From contig CBDIID010000003.1 of the NCBI GenBank assembly GCA_965279515.1, forward strand, positions 4,256,001-4,320,000: a stretch of 64,000 nt of DNA, in the 5' to 3' direction. Position numbers and translations under genes: made by a program. This DNA is from Turneriella sp. (GTDB taxonomy: Bacteria; Spirochaetota; Leptospiria; Turneriellales; Turneriellaceae). The notes below the pieces were generated by a model, which saw nothing but the letters and a program-made list of their open reading frames with translations, was not told where the DNA came from and did not search any database. Every line of letters begins with the position of its first letter. Position 1 is the stretch's first letter. This document shows, one piece after another, positions 947 through 24,550 of the stretch.

Positions 947-3136
947 CTACTTTTCCGTTAACACTTCAAAGCCGCGCCAGTCGGCCGGTGGGAATTTCAG
1001 GTGCCTTTCGATGCGCTCAAGGTAGAGTTTGAGCGTCTTGTCGGCGGTATTCTCTGCCGCCATTTGCAGGAAGGCCGTCTTGGCATCGCTGAACTTGCCT
1101 TCCTGGTAGAGTGCCAGGGCTTTGGTAAAATCGGCGGCCTGTCTTTGTTTCATGCGCTTCTTCTCATCGCTATCGCTGTTGAAGACCTCGATGAGTCCGA
1201 CCGGTTCGTTCTTGCCTTTGACCGCTACACGATCGACGAGCCGGTAGAGGTACTTTTCTTTCTGCTGAATGTCGTTCCACGAGACGTCGGAGATCAGCGT
1301 ACCCGCACCATAATTTTTCGTGAGGCTTTCAATGCGCGAAGCGAGGTTGACGGCATCGGCGATGACTGTACCGTCCATTCTCTGGTGCTCGCCGATCGTA
1401 CCCAGCATCACGCGGCCGTGGTGCACGCCGATGCCGATTGCAACGGGGAGGAAATTATGCTTCGCGCGGCGGTTATTCCAGTCAAAAACACGTTCATGCA
1501 TCGAGAGCGCCGCCTCAAGGGCATCGGTTGCTGCACCGCTCCGCGGCAAAGAGGGCATCCTGCCCGCCGCGGAGTCAGGGCCTCCGTGCCCTCCAGGAAA
1601 TAGCGCCATCACGGCATCACCGATATACTTGTCGATAAAGCCGTGGTGGTCGCGTATGACCGGACCGACCTTGTCGAGGTATGAATTAATAAAGTCAAAA
1701 TTTTCCTTGGGTGTCATCTTCTCTGACAGCGAGGTGAATCCGCGGATATCTGAAAAGAGCACCGCCATATCGCGCTGTACCTGGTCGCCGAGGTTGACGT
1801 CGAGAATGCTCTTCTTATCGAGCATGGTGAGGAATTCAAACGGCACAAAGCGCCGCGAAGCCGCATTAAATTTAGAAAGGCTTTCGTTTAATGCCTCGGT
1901 TTCATCATGGAGACGTACGAATCGGTTGGCCAGCACGAGCGCCATTGATATTATAAAGAAGATAAAAACATAGGTCAATAGCGGTGGCAGGTTGATTTTC
2001 GCCTGCCCGCTGAGAATATCGAGAATCATCGCTGCCAGCAGAACGACGAAGCTGACAATCATGATGATTGCATCGCGGTTTTTTCGTGCCACTTCGCGGA
2101 ACAGTATGAAAGCAATGCCGATAATGTAAAAGAACCAGATATACGTAACGACATTGTTCTGCAGGAAATCCCAGGTTTTGACATCCGGAGAAAACACCAC
2201 CGCCGCGGCCACGCCTGTGATAATAACATTGGCACCAATCACCGAATAGTCCCAGATCTTCACCCAGCCCGTAACAGGCCACTTGTAATAATGCCGGATA
2301 AAATAATAGAACGAAGGTACTAGCGTGAAGAGCGACAGGTACTGGATGCGTTTCCAGAAATACAGATTTAACCCGTATTGGTATTTAAGCTGCGTGTGCA
2401 GCGCACTGTAGACGACCAGTGCCAGGGCAAACAGCGCAAAATAAAAATTTTCGCGATCATGGCGGCGGCGGATAAAAAACAGGAAAAAATAAAGCCCGAA
2501 GGTCAGGTAACAGACGAGGGCAAGCGAACTCCATAGATTTTGCAGGTAGAACTCACGGTACATAAGCGCTGCCGGCCCGATTTCGGTGCGATCGCGGTAG
2601 ATGCCCAGTTCTTTTTCCAGCACACCCTGAACCTCGACGGCAATCTCGTTGACCCCGGCCTTGAGCGCACCCGCAGGGATCGAGTAGAGCCGCGTCTTAT
2701 CATAGGCCTGCGGTTCGGGCCGGCCCATCTCACCGGTTTCGCCGATCAGCACGCCGTTGAGGTAGGTGCGGTCGCGGTCGTTGATTTCACCCAGGCGGAT
2801 TGCGTACGCCTCGGTGGGTATTTTTTCCAAACGAAAGCGCATGCGGTAGTGGGCGATGCCCAGGCCGCTCATTCCGAGCTGGGGAGCCAGATTCTCCGGG
2901 GTTTTGACGATTTTATAGCCTGCGAATTCATCTTCTGCGACTTTTATTTTTCTGACGAGATTGCCTGCGCTGGGCTGGAATGAAGCGTTTTTTGCATACC
3001 AGATAAAACCGTCCGCCGACGAAAATCCTGCGACTTTTCCCGGCTGAATCTCTTTCGGCACGTTCTCTTCGAGGGCCGCAAGACTACCGCCGCCTGCCAG
3101 AGAGAAGAGGAGCAGAAAGCGCAGTTGTTGTTTCAT
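947..3136 (-). CDS. Membrane adenylate/guanylate cyclase (sugar-binding-like periplasmic domain, 7TM region, class III cyclase domain)
   Basis: FSDIRGFT, IDKYIGDAVMA and DAVNLASRIE motifs; about 7 TM segments; LGEINDRDRTYLNG jelly-roll motif. Confidence 0.9.
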   Translation of the reverse strand: MKQQLRFLLLFSLAGGGSLAALEENVPKEIQPGKVAGFSSADGFIWYAKNASFQPSAGNLVRKIKVAEDEFAGYKIVKTPENLAPQLGMSGLGIAHYRMRFRLEKIPTEAYAIRLGEINDRDRTYLNGVLIGETGEMGRPEPQAYDKTRLYSIPAGALKAGVNEIAVEVQGVLEKELGIYRDRTEIGPAALMYREFYLQNLWSSLALVCYLTFGLYFFLFFIRRRHDRENFYFALFALALVVYSALHTQLKYQYGLNLYFWKRIQYLSLFTLVPSFYYFIRHYYKWPVTGWVKIWDYSVIGANVIITGVAAAVVFSPDVKTWDFLQNNVVTYIWFFYIIGIAFILFREVARKNRDAIIMIVSFVVLLAAMILDILSGQAKINLPPLLTYVFIFFIISMALVLANRFVRLHDETEALNESLSKFNAASRRFVPFEFLTMLDKKSILDVNLGDQVQRDMAVLFSDIRGFTSLSEKMTPKENFDFINSYLDKVGPVIRDHHGFIDKYIGDAVMALFPGGHGGPDSAAGRMPSLPRSGAATDALEAALSMHERVFDWNNRRAKHNFLPVAIGIGVHHGRVMLGTIGEHQRMDGTVIADAVNLASRIESLTKNYGAGTLISDVSWNDIQQKEKYLYRLVDRVAVKGKNEPVGLIEVFNSDSDEKKRMKQRQAADFTKALALYQEGKFSDAKTAFLQMAAENTADKTLKLYLERIERHLKFPPADWRGFEVLTEK
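1539..1592 (-). repeat. Two-hairpin GGA-loop element, copy A (in-frame within the cyclase)
   Basis: Minus strand agggc-acggag-gccct followed by ctccgcggc[gggc-aggat-gccc]tcttt gccgcggag. Confidence 0.75.
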
Positions 3137-3999
3137 TTTTTCGCCCCCATCTGTGTGATATAGGCGCCGATAACGTCGCTGATTTTATCATCCGGAGTAT
3201 GTACATTCATCACCATATCCGAATGGTCTGTTTCTTTAATCCATTCAACCCGGATCTGGCGCAGGCCCGCAGCAGCGGATTTCTCAGCTAATTTTTTGCC
3301 CTGTTCAATGAGGTAGTTATAATCTTTTTCACCGAAAAGAATCAGCGCGGCCGTGGCATCGCGCGAAGCGTAGGTTGCCGGAGAATATTTCGCATCTTCG
3401 GCGCCTTCACCGAAGAACGGCACGGTCAGTTCTTTATTAAAATCAGCTTCTTTATGCTGGCGCATATGTGCGATATCGAGAATCGGCGAAAGCGCTATAA
3501 CTCCGCGGACATCCGCATTTTTTTTCTGCCACGCGGCCAGGAGTGCAAGGTGCCCCCCGGCTGAATGGCCCACCAGGTAAACCTGCGCCGGATCGATGGC
3601 AAACTTATCTGCTCTTTTTTTCAGGTATTGCACAGCGTTCGCGATATCGTTCAGTTGGTCTTCGACTTTCGCGCGCGGAAAAAGGGGGTAGTCGATAACT
3701 GCTGTCGCGATACCGCGGCTCGCGAGTGCGAGGCCGAAATTCTGGTAGAGGCCGGTAAATGCCTGGTGGTAACTGCGCGTCTGGTTGCGCCAGTAGCCGC
3801 CATGGATAAAAATGACCGCCGGTACTTTGCCGGCGGCTGTTTTCGGCGTATAAAGATCGAAACCCGCGTCCTTGTCTGCCGTATCTGAATAATTCAGGTC
3901 GTCGTGGAATGCGACTTTTTCTTCAACCTTCGCTCGTGCACGCAGATGGCAGCCGCTAAGCGCCGCCAGAATCGCCGCAATCGTCATAAAACGTATCAT
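3133..3999 (-). CDS. Alpha/beta hydrolase (HSL/arylformamidase-like) lipoprotein
   Basis: HGGYW oxyanion motif, GHSAG nucleophile elbow, LSGC lipobox. Confidence 0.85.
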   Translation of the reverse strand: MIRFMTIAAILAALSGCHLRARAKVEEKVAFHDDLNYSDTADKDAGFDLYTPKTAAGKVPAVIFIHGGYWRNQTRSYHQAFTGLYQNFGLALASRGIATAVIDYPLFPRAKVEDQLNDIANAVQYLKKRADKFAIDPAQVYLVGHSAGGHLALLAAWQKKNADVRGVIALSPILDIAHMRQHKEADFNKELTVPFFGEGAEDAKYSPATYASRDATAALILFGEKDYNYLIEQGKKLAEKSAAAGLRQIRVEWIKETDHSDMVMNVHTPDDKISDVIGAYITQMGAKK

Positions 4000-5297
4000 C
4001 GTATTAACCCCGGATTTTCAAGATATTGCGCGAGCGTTGCGAGAAATTTTGCACCAACGGCGCCGTCGACGATGCGGTGATCGCAGGCGAGGTTTAAGGC
4101 CATAAATTCCCCGAATAAAACTTCGCCATTTTTGCCCTCGTAAGGCCGCCGTTCGCTGGTACCGACGGCGAGAATACACGCCTCGGGCGCATTGATGATG
4201 GCCTGGAACGAAGTGACGCCGAGCATGCCGAGGTTTGAGATCGTAAAGCCTGCGCCGGTGTACTCATCGGGTTTAAGGCGTCGTGCCCGGGCGCGTGCGC
4301 CGAGCTCTTGCGCGGCTGCAGCGATCTGGAAGAGGCTGTACTGATCGGCGTTGCGGATGACCGGCGTGATGAGCCCGTCTTCGATGCTCACAGCGAAGCC
4401 GACGTCGACGTTGCCGAGTTGCACGATGTGGCCATTACCGAATTGACGGAGAACTTCCGGATGGCGCACAAGACTCTGTGCGACCGCCGCGATAATGAAA
4501 TCATTCACCGAGACTTTTTTCGGTAGGTGGGCGTTTTCGGGATTTTCCTGTGCTTGCAGCGTCGCAAGGCCTTTGTTTGTCTCTTCGCGCAATTTCACGA
4601 GGCTCGTCACATTGATGCTGCGCGAGAGGTAGAAGTGCGGTACATTTTGTTTGGCATACGTCAGGCGCTCGGCAATGGTCTGGCGCATCGGCGAGAGCGG
4701 TAGTGTTGTGTCGGGTATGCGCTGACCATGCGCGGCGTGGATCACAATAGAGCCTGCTGTTGTACCGGCGCGGGCCGGCAGTTGCGCGCCTGCCGAAAGA
4801 TCGCGGCTGACGATGCGGCCACCGGGTCCCGTACCCTGAATCGTTTTGAGGTCGATGCCATTTTGCCCGGCGATTTTTTTAGCCAGCGGCGAGCCCTTGA
4901 TGCGGCCCGACACTTGCCCCTGATTTAAATCAGGGGCGAGCGAAGGTTTTGCTGGCGCGGCCTGAGTCGCGCTACCGGTGGTTTGGCTGGTTTGCCCCCG
5001 ATCTGAAGCCGGCTTAGCTTCGGTTTTAATCCCACTCAGCAGGCTGTCGAAATTCTCACCTGGCTCGCCGACGACGGCGATGGGGGCGCCGACCGGAAGT
5101 TTGTCGCCCTTGTTTGCGAGAAGTTTTAATACGACACCACCGTCGTAGGCTTCGAGGTCCATGACCGCCTTGTCGGTCTCAATGGCTGCAAGCACATCGC
5201 CGGGCTTTACCCTGTCGCCTTCTTTTTTCAGCCATTCGACGAAGACGCCTTCCTTCATGGTGGGCGAGAGCTGTGTGATTGTTATTAGTTTAGCCAT
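3996..5297 (-). CDS. pdhC: Pyruvate dehydrogenase E2, dihydrolipoamide acetyltransferase
   Basis: Lipoyl domain IETDKA, E3-binding SPLAKKIA...GTGPGGRI, catalytic DHRIVDG. Confidence 0.9.
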   Translation of the reverse strand: MAKLITITQLSPTMKEGVFVEWLKKEGDRVKPGDVLAAIETDKAVMDLEAYDGGVVLKLLANKGDKLPVGAPIAVVGEPGENFDSLLSGIKTEAKPASDRGQTSQTTGSATQAAPAKPSLAPDLNQGQVSGRIKGSPLAKKIAGQNGIDLKTIQGTGPGGRIVSRDLSAGAQLPARAGTTAGSIVIHAAHGQRIPDTTLPLSPMRQTIAERLTYAKQNVPHFYLSRSINVTSLVKLREETNKGLATLQAQENPENAHLPKKVSVNDFIIAAVAQSLVRHPEVLRQFGNGHIVQLGNVDVGFAVSIEDGLITPVIRNADQYSLFQIAAAAQELGARARARRLKPDEYTGAGFTISNLGMLGVTSFQAIINAPEACILAVGTSERRPYEGKNGEVLFGEFMALNLACDHRIVDGAVGAKFLATLAQYLENPGLIR

Positions 5298-5393
5298 ATC
5301 AGCATTGTGTTAAATGAACTCTGTCACGTCAAACAATCGGGCGTGCCGGTGCACCAACGGTACGACCGGATGTTGAGGTTGGATTAACTTTTT

Positions 5394-5672
5394 TTAAGGG
5401 ACGGTCGTCCAGGACGCCACACCGGCGGTCGGCGAGTAGAGAAAGCCGCTGAAACTGCCGCCCGAAAGGGCACTCTGCAGAAAACCCTTGTCATTGCCAC
5501 AGACGGTGGGATAGACAATTATTGCCATCAACCTTTTTAATGACTGCCTTTAATTTGCCCGATTTGTCCGTCGCAGAGTTGGATCTACATTGTTGCCAGC
5601 GCAATTGGTGGCGCATACGCTGAAATACAGGGCAAGCGAAACTAAACGGCAAAAGAAGTTTTTGTCACGCAT
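5394..5672 (-). pseudogene. Possible remnant of a small lipoprotein gene with two frameshifts
   Basis: MRDKNFFCRLVSLALYFSVCATNCAGNNVDP, then NSATDKSGKLKAVIKKVDGN and IVYPTVCGNDKGFLQSALSGGSFSGFLYSPTAGVASWTTVP* in successive frames. Confidence 0.35.
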
Positions 5673-5785
5673 CGGTTACCAGATCGGTGCTTTCAAATGG
5701 CTGTGGCGCAGCAGCCTGTAAAGGGATATTGTTTTGTAGGCAGTTTTTATCTGTACAATCCGTTCGGCCGCGTATCGCTGGAAGC

Positions 5786-6547
5786 ATGCATATATTTCTG
5801 ACGGGCGCATCGACCGGTATTGGCAACGCCATCGCCAGGGAACTCGATACACATTTCAAGGGCGAAGCATTTTTCTCTCTGGCCTCGCGTAAAAAAGAAT
5901 TGCTCGGCGATTTGGCAAAAACACTGAAAAGTAAATCCGCCGTCTACGCTGCGGACCTGTCAGAACCGGCCGTTGCAGAAATGACGCTCGAGCGTGCCGT
6001 GAAAGAAAACGGCCCGATCGACATTCTCATCAACAACGCGGGCATGCAGAACATCGACCACTTTACTTCCATCAAAAACGAAGATGCCGAGAAACTTTTG
6101 AAACTCAATTACACCACGCCGGCACGGCTCATGCGCAAGGTGTTACCGTCGATGGCCGAGCGCAATTCCGGAACGATTATCAATATCGCGAGTTTAGGCG
6201 GAATCACACCGACGCCGTATATGGCAGAGTACTGTGCCTCGAAAGCCGCCCTGGCGTCGCTGGCGATTGCGCTTTCAGGGGAATACAAAGATACCAAATT
6301 GCATTTTCTTACCGTCTATCCAGGCCCCGTCGAGACGCCGATGTCAAACTATGCCGGCGATCGTTATGAAAAAGATGCCATGAGCCGTGTGCCCTTCGGT
6401 ACGGCGGCCGGCCTTGCGAAGGAAATCCGCATAGCTATGGAAAAACGCAACCACAAGGTTGTCTATCCGGCTGTCTACAAGACGGCTGAAATGTTCCGGG
6501 ATTTTTCTATCTGGGTGACTGCCCAGATGGCCCCTAAACCAAGGTAA
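5786..6547 (+). CDS. Short-chain dehydrogenase/reductase (SDR)
   Basis: TGASTGIG, NNAG and YCASK motifs; start moved to ATG 5786. Confidence 0.9.
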   Translation: MHIFLTGASTGIGNAIARELDTHFKGEAFFSLASRKKELLGDLAKTLKSKSAVYAADLSEPAVAEMTLERAVKENGPIDILINNAGMQNIDHFTSIKNEDAEKLLKLNYTTPARLMRKVLPSMAERNSGTIINIASLGGITPTPYMAEYCASKAALASLAIALSGEYKDTKLHFLTVYPGPVETPMSNYAGDRYEKDAMSRVPFGTAAGLAKEIRIAMEKRNHKVVYPAVYKTAEMFRDFSIWVTAQMAPKPR

Positions 6548-6556
6548 CGGCGCAGA

Positions 6557-6579
6557 CCTGCGGTGAGCTTGTCGAACCG
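6557..6579. repeat. 23-bp REP-like mini-element cctgcggtgagcttgtcgaaccg
   Basis: cggt/accg stem around GAGCTTGTCGA; interrupts a duplicated copy of the SDR 3' end. Confidence 0.55.
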
Positions 6580-6602
6580 TGGCACCTAAACCACGCTAGT
6601 GG

Positions 6603-8450: not shown

Positions 8451-8453
8451 AAA

Positions 8454-8747
8454 TTATTGCTCACGCCTCCAATAATCAGGCTCGCGACTCTGATGAGCAA
8501 CCGCATCGATCAGGATATATTCTCCTAAGTCAGTGTAAAAAATGGTGTATGGAAATTTTTTTAGCGGATAATGACGGTATGTTTCATCGTATGGCGCCCA
8601 TGCTTCCGGAAATTGCCGGATATCTTGTATGGCAGCTTGGATATTCTCAAAAAAACGTGCCGCCAAAAGCGGATCAACACGCTGATACCATTGCTTAGCT
8701 GCGGTAAACTCCTGATCAGCTTCGACGGAAAGTCTGATCGGTTTCAT
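8454..8747 (-). CDS. Type II toxin, RelE/ParE family
   Basis: EADQEF..A.QWY, PEAW, KFPYTIFY and AVAHQSREPDYW pattern. Confidence 0.85.
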   Translation of the reverse strand: MKPIRLSVEADQEFTAAKQWYQRVDPLLAARFFENIQAAIQDIRQFPEAWAPYDETYRHYPLKKFPYTIFYTDLGEYILIDAVAHQSREPDYWRREQ

Positions 8748-8955: not shown

Positions 8956-8996
8956 AAGTTAGCACGGCGCGCCAAACCGGGCGCGACAAGCATTTA

Positions 8997-13474: not shown

Positions 13475-13978
13475 CTATTCTTGTTTGCCGCGGTTGTAAT
13501 CGACCTCAGAGCGGCCAATGCGGATGAGATAATTTTCGGCGTAGGGAAGTTTCGAGACGTCGACGGAGATGAGTTCCTTCACCTCTTTCGCGCTGCGCTC
13601 GTACTGCAGCAGCGCGCTGCCGCTCTGTTCGAGACGCGCGGTTTCCGTAAAATTATGTTTGCGGAAACTCGATTCATAATAGGCGACAATGTCCTTCAGG
13701 TTGTGGTTCGTTTTCTGTAAAATCGTCGACGCACGGCCATCCGTGGCCGCGTCGACCTTGGCACGTCCGTGTGCCATCGGATTATCGACGCGGTAAATTT
13801 CTGCCTGGGGGTAGAGAAGCGAAAGCGAACGGACAAAATCCGGCGCGTCGGAAGGAGAACCTTTGGGCGGTAACTTATCTGACACCGCAATCGCCGTTTC
13901 GGAGTCCTTTTTACCGCACGCGGAAGCCGCCAAGGCAAGTAAGCTGGCGCAAAAAAACGAGGTTATCCGCCTCTGCAT
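13475..13978 (-). CDS. Hypothetical lipoprotein carrying an in-frame palindromic element
   Basis: ASAC lipobox; operonic position. Confidence 0.7.
   Translation of the reverse strand: MQRRITSFFCASLLALAASACGKKDSETAIAVSDKLPPKGSPSDAPDFVRSLSLLYPQAEIYRVDNPMAHGRAKVDAATDGRASTILQKTNHNLKDIVAYYESSFRKHNFTETARLEQSGSALLQYERSAKEVKELISVDVSKLPYAENYLIRIGRSEVDYNRGKQE
13725..13776 (-). repeat. Two-hairpin GGA-loop element, copy C (in-frame within the lipoprotein)
   Basis: Minus strand tggcac-acggac-gtgcca ag gtcgacgc[ggcc-acggat-ggcc]gt gcgtcgac. Confidence 0.8.
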
Positions 13979-14364: not shown

Positions 14365-14679
14365 ATGGTATTCTTATTCGGTATGCCCAATCTCGGCGAG
14401 ATGATCTTCCTCGTCATCATCATCCTTCTGCTCTTTGGCGGCAAGAAGCTCCCTGAACTCGCGCGCGGCCTCGGTGCCGGTATCCACGAGTTCCGCCGTG
14501 GCATGAATGCAGGTAACGAACCAGCATCGACGCAGACACATGCTCCGGCGCCAGCAACTGAGCGTGACGTGACCCCCGGTGAGAACGAAGCACCGCGCAA
14601 GTCGCGCGCCCTGCCGCAGCCCAAACGGGCCGCGCGCCCCGCAGCAAAAAAGAAAGCCGCTGCGAAAAAGAAAAAATAA
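14365..14679 (+). CDS. tatA: Twin-arginine translocase TatA/E subunit
   Basis: LLLFGGKKLPELARGLGAGIHEFR. Confidence 0.9.
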   Translation: MVFLFGMPNLGEMIFLVIIILLLFGGKKLPELARGLGAGIHEFRRGMNAGNEPASTQTHAPAPATERDVTPGENEAPRKSRALPQPKRAARPAAKKKAAAKKKK

Positions 14680-14683: not shown

Positions 14684-14737
14684 GATGCACGAGGCATCTG
14701 ATAGGCGACGGGCAAGGATGCCCTCTCAAGTCGCCTA
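14684..14737 (+). repeat. Two-hairpin GGA-loop element, copy B (tatA-argB spacer)
   Basis: gatgc-acgag-gcatc tga taggcgac[gggc-aaggat-gccc]tctcaa gtcgccta. Confidence 0.8.
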
Positions 14738-14752
14738 ATTTTAGCCAGACAG

Positions 14753-15643
14753 GTGATCAGCATCGAATCCGGTCTGGCCCACTCCCGCGAACGCATCGAA
14801 ACCCTGCTTGAGGCGCTGCCCTATATACAGCGCTTCGCGGGTAAGACCATCGTCATCAAATATGGCGGTGCGGCGATGGAGAAGGCCGACCTCTCCGCCA
14901 AGTTCGCCCAGGACGTTGTTTTACTCAAACTCTGCGGCATAGACCCTGTGATTGTGCACGGCGGCGGCCCGCAGATCAACCAGCTGCTCGAGCGCCTCGG
15001 CGTGAAATCCACCTTTATCGACGGCCACCGTGTCACGGGCGACGCTGAAATGGCCGCGGTCGAAATGGTACTTTCGGGCGACGTAAATAAAAAGATCGTC
15101 GCGCAGATTGCTCGAGCCGGCGGCAAGGCCGTGGGTTTGTCGGGCCGCGACGGTGCGCTCGCGCATGCAGAAAAACATTTTCTCGAACGCAGCGGCAAAG
15201 AGAATGTCGATCTGGGCCGTGTCGGCGCGGTGAAACCCGGCGGTGTCAATATCCAGGTTCTCAACGTGCTGAAGCAGGGCGGGTTTATCCCCGTGATTGC
15301 CCCGGTGGGTTTTGACGCCGACGGTAACTCGCTCAACATTAATGCCGATACCATGGCAGGTGCGATCGCCGCGGCGCTGGGCGCTGAAAAACTGCTGCTG
15401 CTCACGGATACGCCGGGTGTCATGCACGAAGGCAAAACCCTGACGCGGCTCTCTCCCGGTGATGTGAAAAAGCTCAAGGCGGATGGCATCATTTCAGGCG
15501 GTATGATTCCGAAAGTCGACTGCGCTGTGTCCGCTGTGGAAAACCATGTCAACGCGGCGCACATCATCGACGGCCGCGTGCCGAATGCACTCCTGCTCGA
15601 AATTTTTACGGATTCGGGTGTTGGTACGATGCTCGTTCGCTGA
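14753..15643 (+). CDS. argB: Acetylglutamate kinase
   Basis: EALPYIQRF, VIKYGG, VHGGGPQI, NINAD and GGMIPKV. Confidence 0.96.
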   Translation: MISIESGLAHSRERIETLLEALPYIQRFAGKTIVIKYGGAAMEKADLSAKFAQDVVLLKLCGIDPVIVHGGGPQINQLLERLGVKSTFIDGHRVTGDAEMAAVEMVLSGDVNKKIVAQIARAGGKAVGLSGRDGALAHAEKHFLERSGKENVDLGRVGAVKPGGVNIQVLNVLKQGGFIPVIAPVGFDADGNSLNINADTMAGAIAAALGAEKLLLLTDTPGVMHEGKTLTRLSPGDVKKLKADGIISGGMIPKVDCAVSAVENHVNAAHIIDGRVPNALLLEIFTDSGVGTMLVR

Positions 15644-16522: not shown

Positions 16523-16529
16523 GGTTAGT

Positions 16530-18557: not shown

Positions 18558-18562
18558 TGGCT

Positions 18563-19441
18563 CTACGCAGCTCCCGCTTTGGAGAGGGATTTTTCCTGGA
18601 TCGCGACATAACGCTCGGCGATACGCTGCGCGAGATGGCGCACGCGGGCGATATACGTCTGCCGTTCTGTCGGCGAAACGGCGCCGCGCGCATGCAGCAG
18701 ATTGAAGGTGTGCGAACACTTCAGCATGTAGTCATAGGCGGGAAAAACCAGCGGTTCTTTTTCCCAGTCAAGAATACGTTTCGATTCTTCTTCATATTCA
18801 TCGAACCACTTGAAGAGTTTTTTTGTATCGGCGAGCTCGAAGTTATAGTGCGAATATTCCCACTCGGTCTGCGTGTGGATATCGCCGTACTTCATGGTCT
18901 TGTTCCACTGGACCTCGAAAATGCTTTCAACACCTTGCAGGTACATCGCGAGGCGTTCGAGGCCATAGGTGTATTCGACCGAAATTGGTTTCAGCGGCAG
19001 AGATCCGCATTGCTGAAAGTAAGTGAACTGTGTGACTTCCATGCCATTGAGCCAGACTTCCCACCCGAGACCCGAGGCGCCGAGCGTGGGGGACTCCCAA
19101 TCGTCTTGCACGAAACGGATATCGTGCTCTTCGAGCTTGAAGCCCAGCGCTCGCAGGCTGCCGAGGTAAACTTCCTGGGCATCGGGCGGCGACGGCTTCA
19201 TGATAACCTGGTACTGGTAATAATGCTGCCCGCGGTTGGGATTTTCACCGTAGCGGCCATCGGTCGGCCGGCGTGAAGGTTCGACGTAGGCCACGGACCA
19301 CGGCTTGGGCCCCAGCACGCGCAGGAACGTATGCGGGTTAAAAGTGCCCGCGCCGACCTCCATGTCGATGCCCTGGGCGATGACGCAGCCCTGGGCCGCC
19401 CAGTACTGGTTCAGTGTGGCGATGATGTCCTGAAAATACAT
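18563..19441 (-). CDS. glyQ: Glycine-tRNA ligase alpha subunit
   Basis: [27 protein letters not shown] and TYGLERL. Confidence 0.97.
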
Positions 19442-19591
19442 GCGGTAGATTCGCCGCGCTGCGACAGCACGTCACGCGATGTCGGTGCCATGCCCCCCGT
19501 AAACAAGGTAGTTATCCGCGGTTTTCCATGGAATTCCCCCGATTGACCCGGAGCAAAATCTGCGTTAAACCAGCCCTACACGGAGATAACC

Positions 19592-21121
19592 ATGGCAAAA
19601 AAACTCAGGGATCAATATGATGCAATTGTTATCGGTGCCGGTTGCGGCGGCGTGACGGTAGCATCGCTGCTGGCCAAAAAAGGCAGGGATGTCTTGCTTC
19701 TCGAGCAGGGCGATTTTATCGGCGGTTGTTGTTCGACCTTCGAGAAAAAAGGGTTCCGGTTCGATGCCGGCGCTTCCATTCTCGAAGATATCGAAATCAT
19801 TGATCAGGTCTACCAGCGCCTGGGTTCTTCTCTGGCAAAAGAAGTTAAACTCAAGGTCTGCGACCCCGTTTATGATGTGTTGCTCAGCGATGGTTCGAAG
19901 CTGCGTATTCCCCTCGATTCTGACAAGACCGCTGACGAGATCGCGCATATTTCACCGGGGGATGGCAGGCGCTGGAAAAAATACGCCCGCCGCCTCGGTG
20001 AGTTTCTCGACACCGCGCTGCGCGGTTTTTTCGTCATGCCGGCCAATACCCTCGGCGATATGCTGAGAATTTTTAAACGCACGCCTGCGCTCCTGAAATT
20101 CGGTACTCTGTTCGCCGGCAGTTACCAGGGGCTGATGCAGAGATATTTTAAAGACAAACGCATTCTCGAAAGTATGTCGTTCCAGAGCTTCTATGTGGGA
20201 TTACCCCCGGCGCTCGCTCCGGCGTATTTTGCGATGCTGCCTTATTCCGAACACCGCGGCGTCTATTATCCCGAGGGCGGCATGGGGCGCGTTCCCGAAG
20301 GTATCTTACGTCTCGGAAAAAAAACGGGTCTTGAGGTGGCACTGAAAACCGCGGTCGCAAAAATTCTGGTAAAGAACCGCAAGGCATACGGCGTCGAACT
20401 CGCCGATGGCCGAAAGATTTTAAGCTCTGTGGTCGTCTCCGGTATCAATGCCAAGAGCATGTACCAGAAGATGATCGGTCATGAACACCTGCCGTGGATT
20501 GTGCGTGCGGGCCTCAAGAGCTATGAATATTCGATGGCGACGCCGATGATCTATCTCGGCCTCGACTACCGCCCGCCGCTCACGGCGCACCATACATTGG
20601 TGACGATACCCACTGCGGCGATGAACCGATATTGGTACGATTATTATAAGAAGGGGATCTATCCCAAAGAACAGTTCGGCATTATTTGCTGGCCGACATT
20701 TTCTGACCCTGGTATGGCGCCGCGCGGCAAACATATTCTGATTCTGACGCTTGCGCCGGGACCTTACCGGTTAAAAGATAAAAACTGGGATGAGGTAAAG
20801 GAGGAACTGATGGCAGGTATCATCGACTATTATTCGAATAAATATATTCCGGGCCTGAAGGAACATGTCCGGGTCGCCGAGTTTTCGACGCCGCTCGATT
20901 TCGAACGCCGCCTTTTGTCACCCGAGGGCGCCATCTATGCGTTGCGCCAGGATGTGACGAATGCGAGCGTATTTCGTCCCGCGGCGCGCTCGAAAAGTAT
21001 CCGGAATCTCTACCTGGTGGGTGCATCGACGCATCCCGGGGGCGGAGTGCCCACGACGATTGCATCGGGAATGATCGGCGCAGATCTCATCGAAGCTGAT
21101 CTTGCGGGGCGCAAGATATGA
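19592..21121 (+). CDS. Phytoene desaturase (CrtI)-family FAD oxidoreductase
   Basis: GAGCGG, GFRFDAG, YYPEGGM and NLYLVGASTHPGGGVP. Confidence 0.85.
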   Translation: MAKKLRDQYDAIVIGAGCGGVTVASLLAKKGRDVLLLEQGDFIGGCCSTFEKKGFRFDAGASILEDIEIIDQVYQRLGSSLAKEVKLKVCDPVYDVLLSDGSKLRIPLDSDKTADEIAHISPGDGRRWKKYARRLGEFLDTALRGFFVMPANTLGDMLRIFKRTPALLKFGTLFAGSYQGLMQRYFKDKRILESMSFQSFYVGLPPALAPAYFAMLPYSEHRGVYYPEGGMGRVPEGILRLGKKTGLEVALKTAVAKILVKNRKAYGVELADGRKILSSVVVSGINAKSMYQKMIGHEHLPWIVRAGLKSYEYSMATPMIYLGLDYRPPLTAHHTLVTIPTAAMNRYWYDYYKKGIYPKEQFGIICWPTFSDPGMAPRGKHILILTLAPGPYRLKDKNWDEVKEELMAGIIDYYSNKYIPGLKEHVRVAEFSTPLDFERRLLSPEGAIYALRQDVTNASVFRPAARSKSIRNLYLVGASTHPGGGVPTTIASGMIGADLIEADLAGRKI

Positions 21122-21255
21122 GCCCGGTGATCTGGGTGATTCTGGGTGTTGGCGCGGTGCTGCTGGTTTGGCTGTTTGCCAGCAGCGCGCGCCGTCATTT
21201 TATCGCCAGCCTGTTGCGGCAGGCGATCTACCTGATTCCCCGCTATTTCGTCTGA
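21118..21255 (+). CDS. Small membrane protein (45 aa), not in the ORF track
   Basis: MSPVIWVILGVGAVLLVWLFASSARRHFIASLLRQAIYLIPRYFV; ATGA overlap with the upstream gene; exactly fills the gap. Confidence 0.65.
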   Translation: MSPVIWVILGVGAVLLVWLFASSARRHFIASLLRQAIYLIPRYFV

Positions 21256-22014
21256 TTATTTCAGGAATTTTTCCAGGGTAATCAGGCGGTTCACCTCGCC
21301 GGTGGTGTCGAACAGCTTGCCGTTATCGTTCAGTTTAAAGTTGCCGTGCTGCAGGTGGCAGTTGGTGCAGCCGACATTGTTCTTCGCCGACAGCGCCATC
21401 ATCTTCTTGACGATGCGGGCCTTGGCGCCGAGCTTCTTAAAATTCCACCAGGTGGTGATATCGTCACCGCCATCGAGCCACTCTGTCTTCACGATTTCAT
21501 TGGGGGCAATTTCTGACGCGGCGCTGGCACCGTTGGGTTGGAATTTCAGCTTCTCGCCCTCGGCGACGATCTTGCCGGTGAACTCGCCCTTGTCTTTGAT
21601 GGTTACACGATAGTTACAGTTATTAACCCGGGGCAGGTGGCAGGTGCCGCAGGATTTTAAGGAATCGCTGCAGGAATCCGATTCTGCAGGTACTGCTACT
21701 GCAGGCTTGGCAGGAGCGGGAGACGCCGGTTTTTTAGGGGCCGCGATCAGCATTGCAGCGCCTAATTGGGCAAACTCATTGTCATTGAAGCTTTGGTTGA
21801 TTTTGGTTTCTTTTCCCTTGAGTCGGTTCAGTACCTGCTCAATGCATTCATCCTTGATTGGCGCCACGAGGTGGTGGGTCATCTTCAGCATGAAGCGGAC
21901 TTTTTCATCGTCGTTGTTCCAGAGTTTGCCCGGCGTTACTTGCGGTTGTACCGGGGTAGATCCGCATTGGGCGAGAACCGCAAGGAGCAGGGTGGGGATA
22001 AGCAGGCTGCGCAT
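21256..22014 (-). CDS. Putative di-heme c-type cytochrome lipoprotein
   Basis: LAQC lipobox; CGTCH and CTNCH motifs. Confidence 0.7.
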   Translation of the reverse strand: MRSLLIPTLLLAVLAQCGSTPVQPQVTPGKLWNNDDEKVRFMLKMTHHLVAPIKDECIEQVLNRLKGKETKINQSFNDNEFAQLGAAMLIAAPKKPASPAPAKPAVAVPAESDSCSDSLKSCGTCHLPRVNNCNYRVTIKDKGEFTGKIVAEGEKLKFQPNGASAASEIAPNEIVKTEWLDGGDDITTWWNFKKLGAKARIVKKMMALSAKNNVGCTNCHLQHGNFKLNDNGKLFDTTGEVNRLITLEKFLK

Positions 22015-22102
22015 CGGCCATTCTGGGCCGGCCCTAAACGGCGGCGACGAAAATTTCAATCTGCTTGACTCGGCTCCCTTAAATCCCGGCTTTGCCTGAA
22101 GC

Positions 22103-22765
22103 ATGAGCGCCAGGGCCCCCTATATCGCCTTCTTTGATCTCGATGAAACGCTGCTCGCGAAAAACAGCGGCCGCGTTTTTTGGGATTATTGCCTCGAACA
22201 CAAGATCTATTCTGCTACCGATGTCAGTTACCTCGGCTTTGCGTTGTTTAAATTCCTGGTGGGCATCGATGACACCGAAGATTTTGTCCGTACCTGGGCC
22301 AGCGTCTTCAGAGGCTGGAGCCAGGAAAAAATGGAAGAAGTGACGCGCGAACTCTTCGATCTGAGAATCAAGCAGATCATACGGCAGGGCGCCGAAGCAG
22401 AAGTCCAAAAACATAAGGCAGCGGGTGCCCGCACAGTGATTCTTTCGGCTTCGACACGTTATGTCTGCGAGCCGGTCAAAAACCACCTCGCCATGGATGA
22501 GGCGCTGTGCACTGCGCTCGCGATCGAGAACGGTAAATTTACCGGTACGCTCGCAAGCCCCTATATCTTCGGCGAACAGAAATATCTCTCGGCGCTGTCT
22601 TATGCGCAGGAACACGGCTACGACCTCTCGCAATGTTATTATTACGGCGATGCCTATACCGACCGTTTTGTCATGGAGGCGGTGGGTTTTCCGGTCTGCG
22701 TCACTCCCGACAGGAAACTCAGGGCGCACGCGGCGCAAAAGAACTGGAGCATCGTAGAATGGTAG
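22103..22765 (+). CDS. HAD-IB (SerB/PlsC-like) hydrolase
   Basis: FFDLDETL, ILSAS and YGDAYTD. Confidence 0.9.
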   Translation: MSARAPYIAFFDLDETLLAKNSGRVFWDYCLEHKIYSATDVSYLGFALFKFLVGIDDTEDFVRTWASVFRGWSQEKMEEVTRELFDLRIKQIIRQGAEAEVQKHKAAGARTVILSASTRYVCEPVKNHLAMDEALCTALAIENGKFTGTLASPYIFGEQKYLSALSYAQEHGYDLSQCYYYGDAYTDRFVMEAVGFPVCVTPDRKLRAHAAQKNWSIVEW

Positions 22766-22802
22766 TCACGGTAAGGCCGATTTAAGTTCAGTCGGAATCG
22801 GC

Positions 22803-23306
22803 ATGGCAGACGCGGCTCACACGGCCACATACAGTTTCTCACCCCCCTTCGAAAAAAGGTTCCTGGAGATAGAGAAAAAATTTCCCAAACGTTCATCGCT
22901 GGTGCTGTGGTCGTTGCACCTCGCGCAGGAAGATATCGGCTATATTACCCCCGCCGTCGTTGACTATGTCGCCGCGCGTGTCGGGGTCTCTCCCGCATGG
23001 GTCAAGGGCGTCGTTTCGTTCTATTCGATGTTCCGTGAAAAGCCCATCGGCAAGTACCATCTCAATGTCTGCGGCAATCTCATTTGCCAGCTGATGGGTT
23101 CAGATAAGATCGAGAAGTGTATCAAAGACAAGCTGAATATCGGTGACGGCCAAACCACCCCCGACGGCAAGTTTACCTACACCCGCCAGGTCGAGTGCCT
23201 GGCCGCCTGTGGTTATGCCCCGGCGATGCTGGTGAACAATGATTTCCATGAACTTTTGACCCCCGAGTCAGTCGCCAAGCTCATCGACGAACTTTCAGCA
23301 AAATAA
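22803..23306 (+). CDS. nuoE: NADH-quinone oxidoreductase subunit E
   Basis: GVVSFYSMF, C-x4-C and ECLAACGYAP. Confidence 0.92.
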   Translation: MADAAHTATYSFSPPFEKRFLEIEKKFPKRSSLVLWSLHLAQEDIGYITPAVVDYVAARVGVSPAWVKGVVSFYSMFREKPIGKYHLNVCGNLICQLMGSDKIEKCIKDKLNIGDGQTTPDGKFTYTRQVECLAACGYAPAMLVNNDFHELLTPESVAKLIDELSAK

Positions 23307-23422
23307 GCAACCACAAGCCTGCCATAGCGAAAACAGCCCGTATCCTTGTTGACGCGGTGTTTTATTTACCTGTTTCTCCGCACGCGGGGATTTGGATCTA
23401 ACCCTTTCGAAAAACCGCATTT

Positions 23423-23495
23423 GCTGCCTTAGCTCAGCCGGTAGAGCAACTGCCTTGTAAGCAGTAGGTCGTCAGTTCGATTCTGACAGGCAGCT
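23423..23495 (+). tRNA. tRNA-Thr(TGT); CCA not encoded
   Basis: Acceptor gctgcct/aggcagc, anticodon arm actgc-cttgtaa-gcagt, GTTCGA T-loop. Confidence 0.96.
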
Positions 23496-23497
23496 CA

Positions 23498-23548
23498 AGA
23501 CACGAGGTCTAGAGGTCGGCGGCGCGCATGGACGCGCTCCGTGCCGAC
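23498..23548 (+). repeat. Two-hairpin GGA-loop element, copy D (tRNA spacer)
   Basis: agac-acgag-gtct agag gtcggcg[gcgc-atggac-gcgc]tccgt gccgac. Confidence 0.7.
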
Positions 23549-23561
23549 GACCCAGTCTTAG

Positions 23562-23644
23562 GGGTAGGTGGCCGAGTGGTTAATGGCGCTAGACTGTAAA
23601 TCTAGTCTCTCCGGAGTACGAAGGTTCGAATCCTTCCCTGCCCA
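23562..23644 (+). tRNA. tRNA-Tyr(GTA); CCA not encoded
   Basis: Acceptor gggtagg/cctgccc, ctaga-ctgtaaa-tctag, long variable arm, GGTTCGAATCC. Confidence 0.96.
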
Positions 23645-23651
23645 CAATTGG

Positions 23652-23690
23652 ATCCCTTGCGTGGAGCACCCACGCAGGGGATTTTTATTT
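23652..23690 (+). terminator. Intrinsic terminator after the tRNA pair
   Basis: atcccttgcgtgg/ccacgcaggggat stem followed by ttttattt. Confidence 0.75.
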
Positions 23691-24462
23691 AAAGCTTAAT
23701 CTCCAGCACGACCGGGCAGTGGTCCGAGCCCATATGATCGTTCAGATGGCGAATGTCTTTCACCGCCTTATACAACGGTTCATCGATCACAAAATAGTCA
23801 ATTCTCCAACCGATATTACGCGCCCGCGCATTTGTGATCACCTGCCACCAGGTATACGATACCTTCTCAGGGTATTTCGTCCGGAAAACGTCGACCCACT
23901 TGTCGGCAACGAGGCGGTCGACCCAGGCGCGCTCTTCGGGGCGAAAACCCACGGTTTTCTCGTTCTCTTTGGGGCGCGCGAGGTCGATCGGCTGGTGCGC
24001 GACATTGAGGTCGCCGGTGAAAATGACCTTGTTCTTCTTCTTACGCAGGTCTTTGATGTACTTGTGGAAATGATCGAAAAACACGAGCTTCTCTTTCCAT
24101 GCGGCGTCGGATTTCCCGCCGTTCGGGAAGTAGTTACCGAAGACGACTAAATCCCCCGCTTTGACGCCTAAAACGCGGCCTTCATGGTCGTTCCACTTCG
24201 GCATACCGCGCAGAATCTCTACCTTCGGAAAGAGCTTCTTCTTGATGAAGACCCCTGTGCCCGAATAGCCGGGTTTCTCAGCGCTGTGGTAATGTGCTTC
24301 ATAGCCCGGCGGATTGACCAGTGCGTCGGAGAGTTGCTCGACCTTGGCCTTGATCTCCTGGATAAAGAGGATATCCGGCTTTTCTTCTTTAATCAGCTTA
24401 TCGAGCTCACCTTTTTTCTCAATGGCGCGGATGCCGTTGACATTGAATGAAATAATTTTCAT
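23689..24462 (-). CDS. xth: Exodeoxyribonuclease III / AP endonuclease
   Basis: SFNVNGIRA, QEIK, GDLNVAH, GWRIDYF and GSDHCP. Confidence 0.95.
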   Translation of the reverse strand: MKIISFNVNGIRAIEKKGELDKLIKEEKPDILFIQEIKAKVEQLSDALVNPPGYEAHYHSAEKPGYSGTGVFIKKKLFPKVEILRGMPKWNDHEGRVLGVKAGDLVVFGNYFPNGGKSDAAWKEKLVFFDHFHKYIKDLRKKKNKVIFTGDLNVAHQPIDLARPKENEKTVGFRPEERAWVDRLVADKWVDVFRTKYPEKVSYTWWQVITNARARNIGWRIDYFVIDEPLYKAVKDIRHLNDHMGSDHCPVVLEIKL

Positions 24463-24550
24463 GGTACAAGGATGTACCTTGGTCGGCGGCGACAAGGATG
24501 TTCAAGCCCGCCGACCATGGTACCAGGATGTTACCCAAGGTCGGCGGCGA
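24463..24550 (+). repeat. Two-hairpin GGA-loop element, copy E (56-nt unit plus partial tandem copy)
   Basis: ggtac-aaggat-gtacc tt ggtcggcgg cgacaaggatgttcaagc ccgccgacc, then atggtaccaggatgttacccaaggtcggcggcg. Confidence 0.8.

What the first reader, a model, noticed from the sequence alone, without database searches (positions are those of the whole stretch)
1539..24550. Dispersed ~55-nt two-hairpin element with covarying stems and CsrA/RsmA-type GGA loops
Seen: five loci (1539-1592 minus, 13725-13776 minus, 14684-14737, 23498-23548, 24463-24550) share one architecture. A small hairpin is followed by a longer stem enclosing a second small hairpin with a 3' bulge. Stems differ in sequence but keep pairing (agggc/gccct, tggcac/gtgcca, gatgc/gcatc, agac/gtct, ggtac/gtacc). 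Loops are always closed by C-G and read ACGGAG, ACGGAC, AAGGAT, ACGGAT, AGGAT, ATGGAC or ACGAG. Copies A-D lie on the sense strand of the local transcript, and copy E is sense to the downstream plus-strand gene. Established: CsrA dimers bind two ANGGA hairpin loops (SELEX consensus RUACARGGAUGU), and copy E contains GUACAAGGAUGU exactly. Inference: a mobile, structure-conserved RNA module that may distribute paired CsrA sites or act as a distributed sponge. The alternative is a REP-type DNA element.
Basis: partly seen in the sequence, partly recalled or inferred. Interest (0 to 1): 0.8.

Follow-up and report, generated by a model that had tools for sequence, protein, structure and literature searches.

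The report
Mobile twin GGA-hairpin repeat of Turneriella
The five loci are copies of a 54-57-base DNA repeat that folds into two hairpins and occurs about 95 times in this Turneriella-like spirochaete genome, often in frame inside working genes; it is likely a small mobile element rather than a dedicated CsrA-binding RNA, although its loops match the CsrA site.

Summary
All five loci fold as described and are the only five matches in the window to a covariance model built from 25 copies. The family has about 95 copies in this 4.9-Mb genome and 21-74 matches in each of 13 of 13 congeneric genomes. It is nearly absent outside the genus. Stems covary strongly. The loops (CA(N)GGA(T/G)G) and a TCTTT bulge are conserved.

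The RNA/CsrA reading is only partly supported. csrA and fliW are present, and the loops match the CsrA SELEX consensus. However, copies lie sense and antisense to genes in near-equal numbers (48:38). By my gene calls, 38 sit inside genes. Pfam confirmed conserved host genes for those checked (Ham1, EPSP synthase, RecG, RNase R and others), and by the phase estimate all three phases are used in each orientation. Copies A and B are in-frame insertions of 19 and 18 codons that orthologues lack. Copies C, D and E are absent from the same sites in relatives.

No RAYT link was found, and the family scores below threshold for Rfam TwoAYGGAY. The best reading is a mobile, structure-defined DNA repeat resembling RPEs or MITEs, with its mobilising enzyme unknown. 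This scan had already found the same family in other windows of this genome.

The parts
1539..1592 (-). Copy A. A full unit, sense and in frame inside the cyclase catalytic domain. It encodes about GGHGGPDSAAGRMPSLPRS.
   Evidence: Model match of 65 bits. It is a 19-residue insertion absent from 9 of 12 orthologous loci inspected in the printed output. Two loci carry two units and one carries a partial unit. In the AlphaFold model it is a low-confidence coil (pLDDT <50) between strand 68-74 and helix 95-118.
947..3136 (-). Host gene of A: a 7TMR-DISM membrane adenylate/guanylate cyclase.
   Evidence: Pfam PF07695 and PF00211. The cyclase domain spans 190 residues against 169 profile positions.
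13725..13776 (-). Copy B. A full unit with a short 2-nt bulge, sense and in frame in a conserved small lipoprotein-like gene.
   Evidence: Model match of 48.1 bits. It is an 18-residue insert present here and, decayed, in G001. It is absent in 6 relatives, and 4 relatives have an unrelated 9-10-residue insert. It is the best match in the genome to RF01731, though below threshold.
13475..13978 (-). Host gene of B (167 aa, no Pfam family).
   Evidence: Found in 12 of 13 congeneric genomes. No Pfam family.
14684..14739 (+). Copy C. A full unit that fills most of the 73-nt spacer between tatA (14365-14679) and an amino-acid-kinase gene (14753-15643). It is sense to both.
   Evidence: Model match of 47.2 bits. 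Pfam for both neighbours. No model match at E<=0.1 beside the kinase-gene orthologue in the 12 relatives' loci scanned. One weak match in G008 lies about 930 nt away.
23498..23548 (+). Copy D. A full unit in the spacer between tRNA-Thr (23423-23496) and tRNA-Tyr (23562-23645), sense to both.
   Evidence: Model match of 39.4 bits. tRNAs. Of the 10 spacers compared, only this genome carries the element. The other 9 hold unrelated hairpins of 48-154 nt.
24463..24517 (+). Copy E1. A full unit that abuts the ATG (24462-24460, minus strand) of the exonuclease III-type gene 23689-24462. It is antisense to that gene's leader.
   Evidence: Model match of 41.7 bits. Pfam PF03372. No model match at E<=0.1 in the 11 relatives' loci for this gene. 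Upstream regions were read in 9 of them.
24518..24550 (+). Copy E2. A truncated second unit: hairpin 1 plus the 5' arm of the outer stem only.
   Evidence: Read from the sequence. It ends where a block conserved in 5 of the 9 relatives read (GAAAATAACT) begins.

Best explanation
The five loci are copies of a genus-restricted nested double-hairpin DNA repeat of about 54-57 bp, with about 95 copies in this genome. It is likely a non-autonomous mobile element that is defined by its folded shape rather than by its stem sequence.

Shown directly:
- Copies are gained and lost between related species at the same sites.
- They form head-to-tail arrays of the form (hairpin 1 - hairpin 2)n - hairpin 1.
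- They sit between genes and, in frame, inside conserved genes in both orientations; by my phase estimate all three phases are used in each orientation.
- The loops CA(N)GGA(T/G)G and a TCTTT bulge stay constant while the stems covary.

Inferred:
- The element would be recognised and moved as folded single-stranded nucleic acid of the GGA strand, by a trans-acting factor not yet identified. The loops and bulge would be the recognition determinants.
- Arrays would grow and shrink by recombination or slippage between units, leaving solo hairpin 1 relics.
- Copies inside genes persist because a unit of 18-19 codons with no stop adds only a Gly/Ala/Ser/Asp/Arg-rich disordered surface loop.
- Sense-transcribed copies would display two CsrA-type sites about 27-30 nt apart and may bind CsrA. 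I read this as a side effect or later co-option, not the reason the family exists.
For: Family size and range: 87 model matches at E<=0.01 in the own genome, plus 8 more from a descriptor scan. Each of 13 of 13 congeneric genomes has 21-74 matches. The six other genomes of the family have 0-3. Of 21 genomes from the rest of the order and class, 1 has matches. Single matches occur in 4 of 150 sampled genomes of the phylum.

Mobility at the five loci:
- A is absent from 9 of 12 orthologous loci inspected, double in 2 and partial in 1.
- B is absent in 6 relatives and replaced in 4.
- D is present in 1 of 10 spacers compared.
- C and E are absent beside the orthologous genes in 12 and 11 relatives' loci.

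Insertions in genes: by my own gene calls, 38 of 95 copies lie inside genes, 24 sense and 14 antisense. Pfam confirmed conserved domains in 17 of the 20 host proteins checked. Element coordinates place copies within or between the domains of Ham1, EPSP synthase, RecG, the RNB domain, RibD_C (two copies), E1-beta, DUF2071 and DUF4139. By a loop-anchored phase estimate, all three phases occur in each orientation.

The insert in the cyclase is a low-confidence loop between a strand and a helix in a model with pTM 0.81.

There is no bias towards either replication strand.

Covariation is strong. Orthologous copies of A differ by paired changes: hairpin 1 reads GGGC/GCCC, GCAC/GTGC or GCGC/GCGC.

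In a test that treats G-T and A-C alike when choosing copies, stems hold 44 G-T against 18 A-C on the GGA strand (p=0.0013). The direction is the same in antisense copies, 6 against 2.

Flanking direct repeats of 5 nt or more occur in 20 of 95 copies against 6.3 expected.
Against: - No mobilising enzyme was found. There is no related autonomous element and no clear, uniform target-site duplication. Many flanking repeats are simply the start of a partial next unit.
- No closely related strains were available, so no fresh insertion with exact boundaries was seen.
- The stems are far more diverse than in ordinary MITE or REP families. That is easier to explain by selection on a functional structure, or by a mechanism that builds stems anew.
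- The loops match the CsrA consensus far better than a transposase site would need to.
- Sense copies are somewhat commoner among internal, co-directional intergenic and 5'-proximal copies: 44 against 24.
- My gene calls are a crude codon-score caller. Only 20 host genes were checked against Pfam.
- The G-T excess rests on 62 cells in 62 copies.
Confidence: 0.6

Rival explanations
1. A distributed CsrA-binding RNA module. The element exists because its transcript presents two GGA hairpins that a CsrA dimer bridges, so it places host mRNAs under CsrA control or collectively titrates CsrA.
For: The loops fit RUACARGGAUGU (consensus seen in passages of PMC7652899). The exact 12-mer occurs 3 times in the genome, 2 of them in elements. 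The 10-mer occurs 23 times, 13 of them in elements. Most copies carry two or more GGA: 79 of 95. The GGA-to-GGA spacing read from the listed copies is about 27-30 nt. csrA and fliW are present. In the window, copies A-D are sense. Sense exceeds antisense 44:24 among internal, co-directional and 5'-proximal copies. G-T exceeds A-C on the GGA strand.
Against: Overall orientation is 48 sense to 38 antisense. Antisense copies with intact loops sit within or between conserved domains of host genes. The G-T excess follows the element's strand even in antisense copies, 6 against 2. csrA is in 41 of 41 relatives but the element is in one genus only. This is a FliW-type system, and the review reports fliW as anti-correlated with the BarA-UvrY machinery needed to transcribe the sponge RNAs (passages of PMC7652899). 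The SELEX hairpins mostly had four or fewer base pairs, and the review suggests very stable structure may be disadvantageous for binding, whereas these stems are long. Copy E lies upstream of the sequence block that several relatives conserve ahead of the plus-strand gene.
Confidence: 0.15
2. A diverged spirochaete member of the TwoAYGGAY RNA family (Rfam RF01731). That family is a multi-copy, possibly mobile motif with two AYGGAY-loop hairpins, known from Pseudomonadota and Bacillota.
For: It shares two hairpins with A(Y)GGA(Y)-type loops, tens of copies per genome, and copy number that varies among relatives. The preprint 10.64898/2026.09.22.753630 (passages seen) reports 11-23 median copies in Pseudomonas groups, a mobile-element-like expansion, 1,693 of 16,086 matches inside CDS, and proposed Csr/Rsm binding. 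The only RF01731 match at E<=1 in this genome is copy B.
Against: That match scores 24.4 bits against a gathering score of 43 and covers model positions 48-110 of 168. No Rfam family matched 20 copies at E<=1, nor copy E at a meaningful score. The architecture differs. Here hairpin 1 lies outside the long stem that encloses hairpin 2, whereas TwoAYGGAY has two hairpins on a common basal stem. The loops also include AAGGAT, AGGAT and ACGAG.
Confidence: 0.12
3. A REP/REPIN-type element mobilised by a RAYT (REP-associated tyrosine transposase).
For: It is a short, multi-copy palindromic repeat. One Y1_Tnp gene is present in this genome, and such genes occur in 11 of 13 congeneric genomes.
Against: The Y1 protein fits IS200 (76.4 bits, cut-off 55), not REP_Tyr_transpos (25.8 bits, cut-off 80). 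It is flanked by its own CTGGGAATTAATTCCC(A/G)G palindromes, which occur only twice in the genome. No element match lies beside the Y1 gene in the own locus (best 8.7 bits, about 600 nt away) or at E<=1 in the five relatives' Y1 loci. Y1 genes also occur in genera that lack the element. By my gene of 95 copies are inside genes. Arrays are direct repeats, not inverted doublets.
Confidence: 0.03
4. Another cis-acting RNA or DNA structure kept by selection at each site, such as a stability, processing or pausing element, with no mobility of its own.
For: Covariation is strong, and paired changes occur between orthologous copies. Copies occupy tRNA spacers and short operon spacers.
Against: Presence or absence differs at all five sites among congeners. 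Tandem near-identical units exist. Copies lie in frame inside unrelated housekeeping genes in both orientations. No single cis function fits all these contexts.
Confidence: 0.07

Closest known systems
Rickettsia palindromic elements (RPEs)
   Same: A palindromic repeat family restricted to one lineage. It inserts in frame into conserved protein-coding genes as well as between genes, adding a peptide segment without destroying the host protein. What I know of RPEs is recalled; I saw only search listings.
   Different: By recall, RPEs are about 100-150 bp and are sequence families. This element is 54-57 bp, has almost no conserved stem sequence, has conserved GGA loops, forms tandem arrays, and by my phase estimate is read in all three phases of each orientation. 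No sequence comparison with RPEs was made.
TwoAYGGAY RNA motif (Rfam RF01731; table row seen in PMC2864571; passages of bioRxiv 10.64898/2026.09.22.753630)
   Same: Two hairpins with A-Y-GGA-Y-type loops, many copies per genome, mobile-element-like copy-number variation, and proposed Csr/Rsm binding.
   Different: It scores below the Rfam threshold (24.4 against 43 bits). It has a nested architecture rather than a common basal stem. It comes from a different phylum. It is much shorter (about 55 nt against a 168-position model). By my gene calls about 40% of copies lie inside genes.
CsrB/RsmY/RsmZ-type CsrA sponge RNAs and CsrA-bound mRNA leaders
   Same: GGA in C-G or A-U closed hairpin loops that match the SELEX consensus, two or more per unit, with tandem arrays giving 4-7 such loops.
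   Different: No dedicated sRNA gene features were found. Copies occur in both orientations and inside coding sequence. The organism has the FliW-type antagonist. No binding data exist.
REP/BIME elements with RAYT, and MITEs
   Same: Short, non-coding-sized, multi-copy palindromic repeats without their own transposase.
   Different: There is no RAYT association, no conserved terminal inverted repeats shared with an IS, and no uniform target-site duplication. Stems are variable rather than conserved.
Integron attC sites
   Same: They are recognised by shape rather than sequence, fold on one strand, and are of similar size. This comparison rests on recalled knowledge.
   Different: No integron integrase scores above the TIGR02249 cut-off (best 93 against 265 bits). 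I did not notice an R'/R'' GTTRRRY-type core in the copies I read, but made no pattern search for it.

Membership tests
CsrA (Csr/Rsm) RNA ligands | GGA in the loop of a short hairpin, matching RUACARGGAUGU | tested here: met
   Loops read CA(N)GGA(T/G)G. The exact 12-mer is in copy E. The 10-mer occurs 13 times inside elements out of 23 in the genome. The consensus was seen in PMC7652899.
CsrA (Csr/Rsm) RNA ligands | csrA encoded in the genome | tested here: met
   PF02599 at 81.9 bits and TIGR00202 at 81.4 bits, next to fliW. csrA is also present in 41 of 41 relatives, most of which lack the element.
CsrA (Csr/Rsm) RNA ligands | Motif on the transcribed (sense) strand | tested here: not met
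   48 sense, 38 antisense and 9 unassignable out of 95, using my own gene calls. Antisense copies lie within or between Pfam domains of verified genes.
CsrA (Csr/Rsm) RNA ligands | Binding by CsrA | not testable with these tools
   This needs EMSA or CLIP.
TwoAYGGAY (RF01731) | Scores at or above the Rfam gathering threshold | tested here: not met
   The best match in the genome is copy B at 24.4 bits against a threshold of 43. None of 20 copies matched any family at E<=1.
TwoAYGGAY (RF01731) | Two sibling AYGGAY hairpins on a common basal stem | tested here: not met
   Folds and the covariation-supported model show hairpin 1 outside the long stem that encloses hairpin 2.
REP/RAYT | A RAYT gene flanked by the repeats | tested here: not met
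   The Y1 gene is IS200-type and is flanked by unrelated palindromes. No element match lies beside the Y1 gene in the own locus (best 8.7 bits) or at E<=1 in five relatives' loci.
REP/RAYT | Extragenic location | tested here: not met
   By my gene of 95 copies are inside genes. Pfam confirmed conserved domains in 17 of the 20 host proteins checked.
RPE-like coding-compatible palindromic elements | In-frame insertion in conserved genes, absent from orthologues | tested here: met
   A, B, and a further case at C3:2205628 compared with G011. Domain-length excesses of 18-50 residues appear in Ham1, EPSP synthase and RibD_C.
RPE-like coding-compatible palindromic elements | Sequence relationship to Rickettsia RPE families | not tested
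   No RPE sequences were fetched. The resemblance is functional only.
MITE | Terminal inverted repeats shared with an autonomous IS, plus a uniform target-site duplication | tested here: inconclusive
   Flanking direct repeats of 5 nt or more occur in 20 of 95 copies against 6.3 expected. They vary in length and often extend into hairpin 1. No parent IS was identified.
Integron attC | An integron integrase in the genome | tested here: not met
   The best TIGR02249 score is 93 bits against a cut-off of 265. All 14 control genomes also ring below the cut-off.

The most novel reading that the evidence does not exclude
The element is a new kind of structure-templated mobile DNA. It would be active as the folded GGA strand, and its variable outer stem would be copied from, or matched to, the DNA next to each insertion site. 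That would explain 'same shape, different letters' without slow compensatory evolution. Because every sense copy displays a near-perfect pair of CsrA sites, the family would also act as a genome-wide, evolvable CsrA-binding layer in a FliW-type organism, a group not reported in the review I read to use RNA sponges.

Two copies in this window hint at the first point. The 3' arm of B (GCGTCGAC) equals a host 8-mer found 7 nt upstream and also at the empty site of relatives. The 3' arm of E1 (CGCCGACC) equals an 8-mer at the same place in a relative that has no element.
Probability: 0.12. Interest if true: 0.85.

Novelty: new variant of a known kind. Interest (0 to 1): 0.6.

Why it matters
The family combines three things usually seen apart. 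Its shape is kept while its letters change. It inserts freely in frame into housekeeping genes, by my phase estimate in every reading phase. Its loops are near-perfect sites for a global RNA regulator.

It offers a clean natural test of whether CsrA-type 'sponge-like' hairpin arrays are regulatory genes or mobile DNA. It is also a tractable system for finding an enzyme or process that recognises folded single strands. In my three literature searches I found no description of it in Turneriella. The nearest description in print is the TwoAYGGAY work in Pseudomonas.

Tried and rejected
- A loose structure-only descriptor gave 22,675 hits, mostly noise, with no dominant loop. It became useful only after filtering for GGA loops. 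A reversed-genome control showed that stem score alone does not separate real copies from chance.
- MAFFT alignment of five copies was not structurally consistent. I built the model from 25 copies with a hand-set structure instead.
- A first G-U against A-C count from MFE folds (49 against 5, and 13 against 13 on the complement) was biased by how copies were chosen and by the folding rules. I replaced it with a symmetric purine-pyrimidine test. The first version gave 39 against 26, not significant. After trimming helices at the last Watson-Crick pair it gave 44 against 18.
- Rfam: at gathering thresholds the window gives only the two tRNAs. E-value mode on 20 copies gave nothing, and on copy E only chance microRNA-type matches.
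- REP/RAYT was rejected.
- An integron integrase was not found above the cut-off.
- Sequencing runs: no RNA holder is listed, and no reads were laid.
- I tested whether the outer arm is copied from flanking DNA. There is some enrichment: 11 of 95 against 3.1 expected for matches of 6 nt or more. Three of the 11 are tandem neighbours. In one checked case (C3:2205628) the upstream repeat is part of the inserted DNA, not host sequence. The question is unresolved.
- Orthologues of the gene holding C3:3639603 were too distant to use, at 26-32% identity.
- I fetched L220 but did not use it.

Full report
THE OBSERVATION

On the strand that carries GGA, each has four parts in order:
- a 4-6-bp hairpin whose loop is closed by C-G (ACGGAG, ACGGAC, ACGAG, ACGAG, AAGGAT);
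- a 3-4-nt spacer;
- a 6-10-bp outer stem that encloses a 3-5-bp hairpin with a second loop (AGGAT, ACGGAT, AAGGAT, ATGGAC, AAGGAT);
- a 2-6-nt bulge on the 3' side.

Single-sequence folds return this structure with z-scores of -3.0, -3.4, -3.2, -1.9 and -4.3. Copy E is one full unit followed by a second hairpin 1 and only the 5' arm of a second outer stem. GTACAAGGATGT is present in E. It matches the SELEX consensus RUACARGGAUGU, which I saw quoted in passages of PMC7652899.

IS IT MORE THAN CHANCE?

A structure-only descriptor was uninformative. Once I required GGA in both loops, dozens of clean copies appeared across the genome. I aligned 25 copies and built a covariance model with 19 base pairs.

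The model finds 87 places at E<=0.01 in the 4.9-Mb genome, all on the large contig. Only 150 of 2,218 first-look candidates were scored, so this is a lower bound. Eight further descriptor hits bring my working list to 95. In the 64-kb window the model finds exactly the five reported loci.

On 40 model-aligned copies, 91.1% of cells are standard pairs, against 61.7% in shuffles (0 of 500 as high) and 29-45% when partners are slid. Of 19 pairs, 18 show double changes. That alignment is fitted to the model, which favours the structure.

The conserved parts are the two loops (CA(N)GGA(T/G)G), a purine-rich spacer and a TCTTT-type bulge. The stems are largely free, although some hairpin-1 stems recur (GCGC, GGTAC).

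ORGANISM AND RANGE

The best orthologue loci of the cyclase gene carry titles naming Turneriella or Leptospiraceae MAGs.

The model finds 21-74 matches in each of 13 of 13 genomes of the same genus. In the six other genomes of the family it finds 0-3 matches. Of the 21 genomes from the rest of the order and class, 1 has matches. In a sample of 150 genomes of the phylum, 4 have a single match each; only 35 candidates per genome were scored there.

WHERE THE COPIES SIT

I made rough gene calls with a codon-score caller: 4,244 genes and 89% coding. Of the 95 copies:
- 38 are well inside genes (24 sense, 14 antisense);
- 11 are near a gene end;
- 17 overlap a called end;
- 29 are intergenic.

Overall, 48 are sense, 38 are antisense and 9 cannot be assigned. 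By my arithmetic this split is not significantly different from even. There is no bias towards either replication strand on either side of the skew-inferred origin.

Pfam on 20 host proteins gave no family for 3. In the rest it confirmed conserved domains, and the element coordinates place copies as follows:
- inside the Ham1, EPSP synthase, RNB, RibD_C (two copies, one in each orientation), DUF2071 and DUF4139 domains;
- between the DEAD and Helicase_C matches of RecG, and between the domains of a transketolase-type E1-beta, a flavodoxin/FAD reductase and a GDSL-MBOAT protein.

The domain spans are 9-50 residues longer than the profiles. By a phase estimate anchored on the inner loop, which is imprecise for 5- versus 6-nt loops, all three phases occur in each orientation. 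The peptides are rich in Gly, Ala, Ser, Asp, Arg and Pro.

THE FIVE LOCI IN DETAIL

A lies in frame in the catalytic domain of a 7TMR-DISM cyclase. In tblastn and protein alignments, the 19 residues are missing from 9 of the 12 orthologous loci I could read. They are doubled in two Turneriella MAG loci and reduced to a hairpin-1 remnant in one. An AlphaFold model of the domain (mean pLDDT 81.8, pTM 0.81) puts the insert in a coil with pLDDT below 50 between strand 68-74 and helix 95-118.

B is an 18-residue in-frame insert in a small conserved protein. It is present here and, decayed, in one relative. It is absent in six relatives. Four relatives have a different insert of 9-10 residues. Four relatives also carry extra residues at a second site of the same gene; in the one whose DNA I read (L183) that insert contains antisense GGA-loop hairpins.

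C fills the tatA-kinase spacer, and E abuts the start codon of an exonuclease III-type gene. Neither is found beside the orthologous genes in 12 and 11 relatives' loci.

D lies between tRNA-Thr and tRNA-Tyr. Of the 10 spacers compared, only this genome has it. The others hold unrelated hairpins.

E lies upstream of a sequence block (GAAAATAACT ... TGCCGAA) that several relatives keep ahead of the plus-strand gene. The homology of that gene's product to relatives starts only at residues 8-61 of the long ORF, at 26-38 in most. E is therefore not clearly part of that transcript, and it is antisense in the exonuclease leader.

ARRAYS AND FLANKS

Units occur head to tail with periods of 55-63 nt. 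The cyclase site shows the pattern (hairpin 1 - hairpin 2)n - hairpin 1.

Orthologous units differ by paired changes. Hairpin 1 reads GGGC/GCCC, GCAC/GTGC or GCGC/GCGC. The outer stem reads G-C or A-T, with G-T and A-C intermediates.

Direct repeats of 5 nt or more flank 20 of 95 copies, against 6.3 expected. Many of them run on into the start of hairpin 1, which means they are a partial next unit.

WHICH STRAND FOLDS?

I chose copies by the loops and by purine-pyrimidine opposition only, so that G-T and A-C were treated alike. In those copies the stems hold 916 Watson-Crick pairs, 44 G-T and 18 A-C on the GGA strand (p=0.0013). The direction is the same in copies that are sense (11:6), antisense (6:2) and intergenic or at gene edges (27:10).

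This points to folding of the GGA strand whatever the direction of host transcription. The numbers are small.

CsrA

csrA is present once, next to fliW. It is also present in 41 of 41 relatives, most of which lack the element.

The loop match is striking. ACARGGAUGU occurs 23 times in the genome, and 13 of these are in the elements. No RNA data were available.

OTHER FAMILIES

Rfam gives nothing at threshold. RF01731 (TwoAYGGAY) scores 24.4 bits, against a threshold of 43, on copy B only. Its architecture differs.

The single Y1 transposase is IS200-type. It has its own palindromes and no element nearby, either here or in five relatives. No integron integrase passes its cut-off.

READING

The family behaves as mobile, shape-defined DNA that is tolerated inside genes. 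The CsrA-like loops are real, but their role is untested.

An unexplained point is that the 3' outer arms of B and E1 equal 8-mers of neighbouring DNA, and those 8-mers are also present at element-free sites in relatives. In another case the upstream repeat was part of the insert itself.

PRIOR WORK

Earlier notes of this scan on other windows of the same genome reached the same family-level reading and supplied the TwoAYGGAY lead, which I tested. Three literature searches found no description of the element in Turneriella.

Noticed in passing
G000:C3:2616100-2616560 (locus L152 1440-1910): A single-copy IS200-type Y1 transposase gene (134 aa). It is bracketed by two near-perfect palindromes containing CTGGGAATTAATTCCC(A/G)G, which occur nowhere else in the genome.
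   Followed up: yes
L161-L169 (tRNA-Thr/tRNA-Tyr spacers of relatives); window 23497-23561: In each of the 9 relatives compared, this spacer holds a different stable hairpin structure of 48-154 nt, often long and near-perfect. None is the GGA element. The spacer looks like a hot spot for hairpin turnover.
   Followed up: partly
L182, L183, L185, L186 (orthologues of window 13475-13978): Four relatives carry 10-35 extra residues at a second site of the same small protein (repeats such as CRDGDTSC). In L183, the only one whose DNA I read, the insert contains antisense GGA-loop hairpins (GACACCTCCTGTGTC). The same gene was therefore invaded twice, at different sites in different species.
   Followed up: partly
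window 13779-13790 and 13725-13732; window 24503-24510 with L205: The 3' arm of the outer stem of B (GCGTCGAC) repeats a host 8-mer 7 nt upstream of hairpin 1, and that 8-mer is also present at the empty site in relatives. The 3' arm of E1 (CGCCGACC) equals an 8-mer at the homologous element-free place in G007. Genome-wide enrichment is modest: 11 of 95 against 3.1 expected, including 3 tandem neighbours.
   Followed up: partly
window 24540-24625: Two sequence blocks lie in the divergent region between the exonuclease III-type gene and the downstream gene, whose product appears to have a signal peptide: GAAAATAACT, kept in 5 of the 9 relatives read, and TGCCGAA with variable flanks, kept in 7 of 9. 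They may be a promoter.
   Followed up: no
G000:C3:3198123-3198691: fliW and csrA are adjacent on the same strand, the partner-switch arrangement of flagellated bacteria. One element copy lies 4.6 kb away, at 3202909-3202963.
   Followed up: no
whole genome; window 19353-19368, 19680-19695, 24653-24667, 42064-42078, 53979-53994: 186 single hairpins with CA(N)GGA(N)G loops and at least 4 further base pairs lie outside the 95 elements. Permuted control loops give 66-162. Some excess of solo GGA hairpins may therefore exist.
   Followed up: partly
window 1-25000: Five copies lie within 23 kb, against a genome average of about one per 51 kb. This is a local cluster.
   Followed up: no
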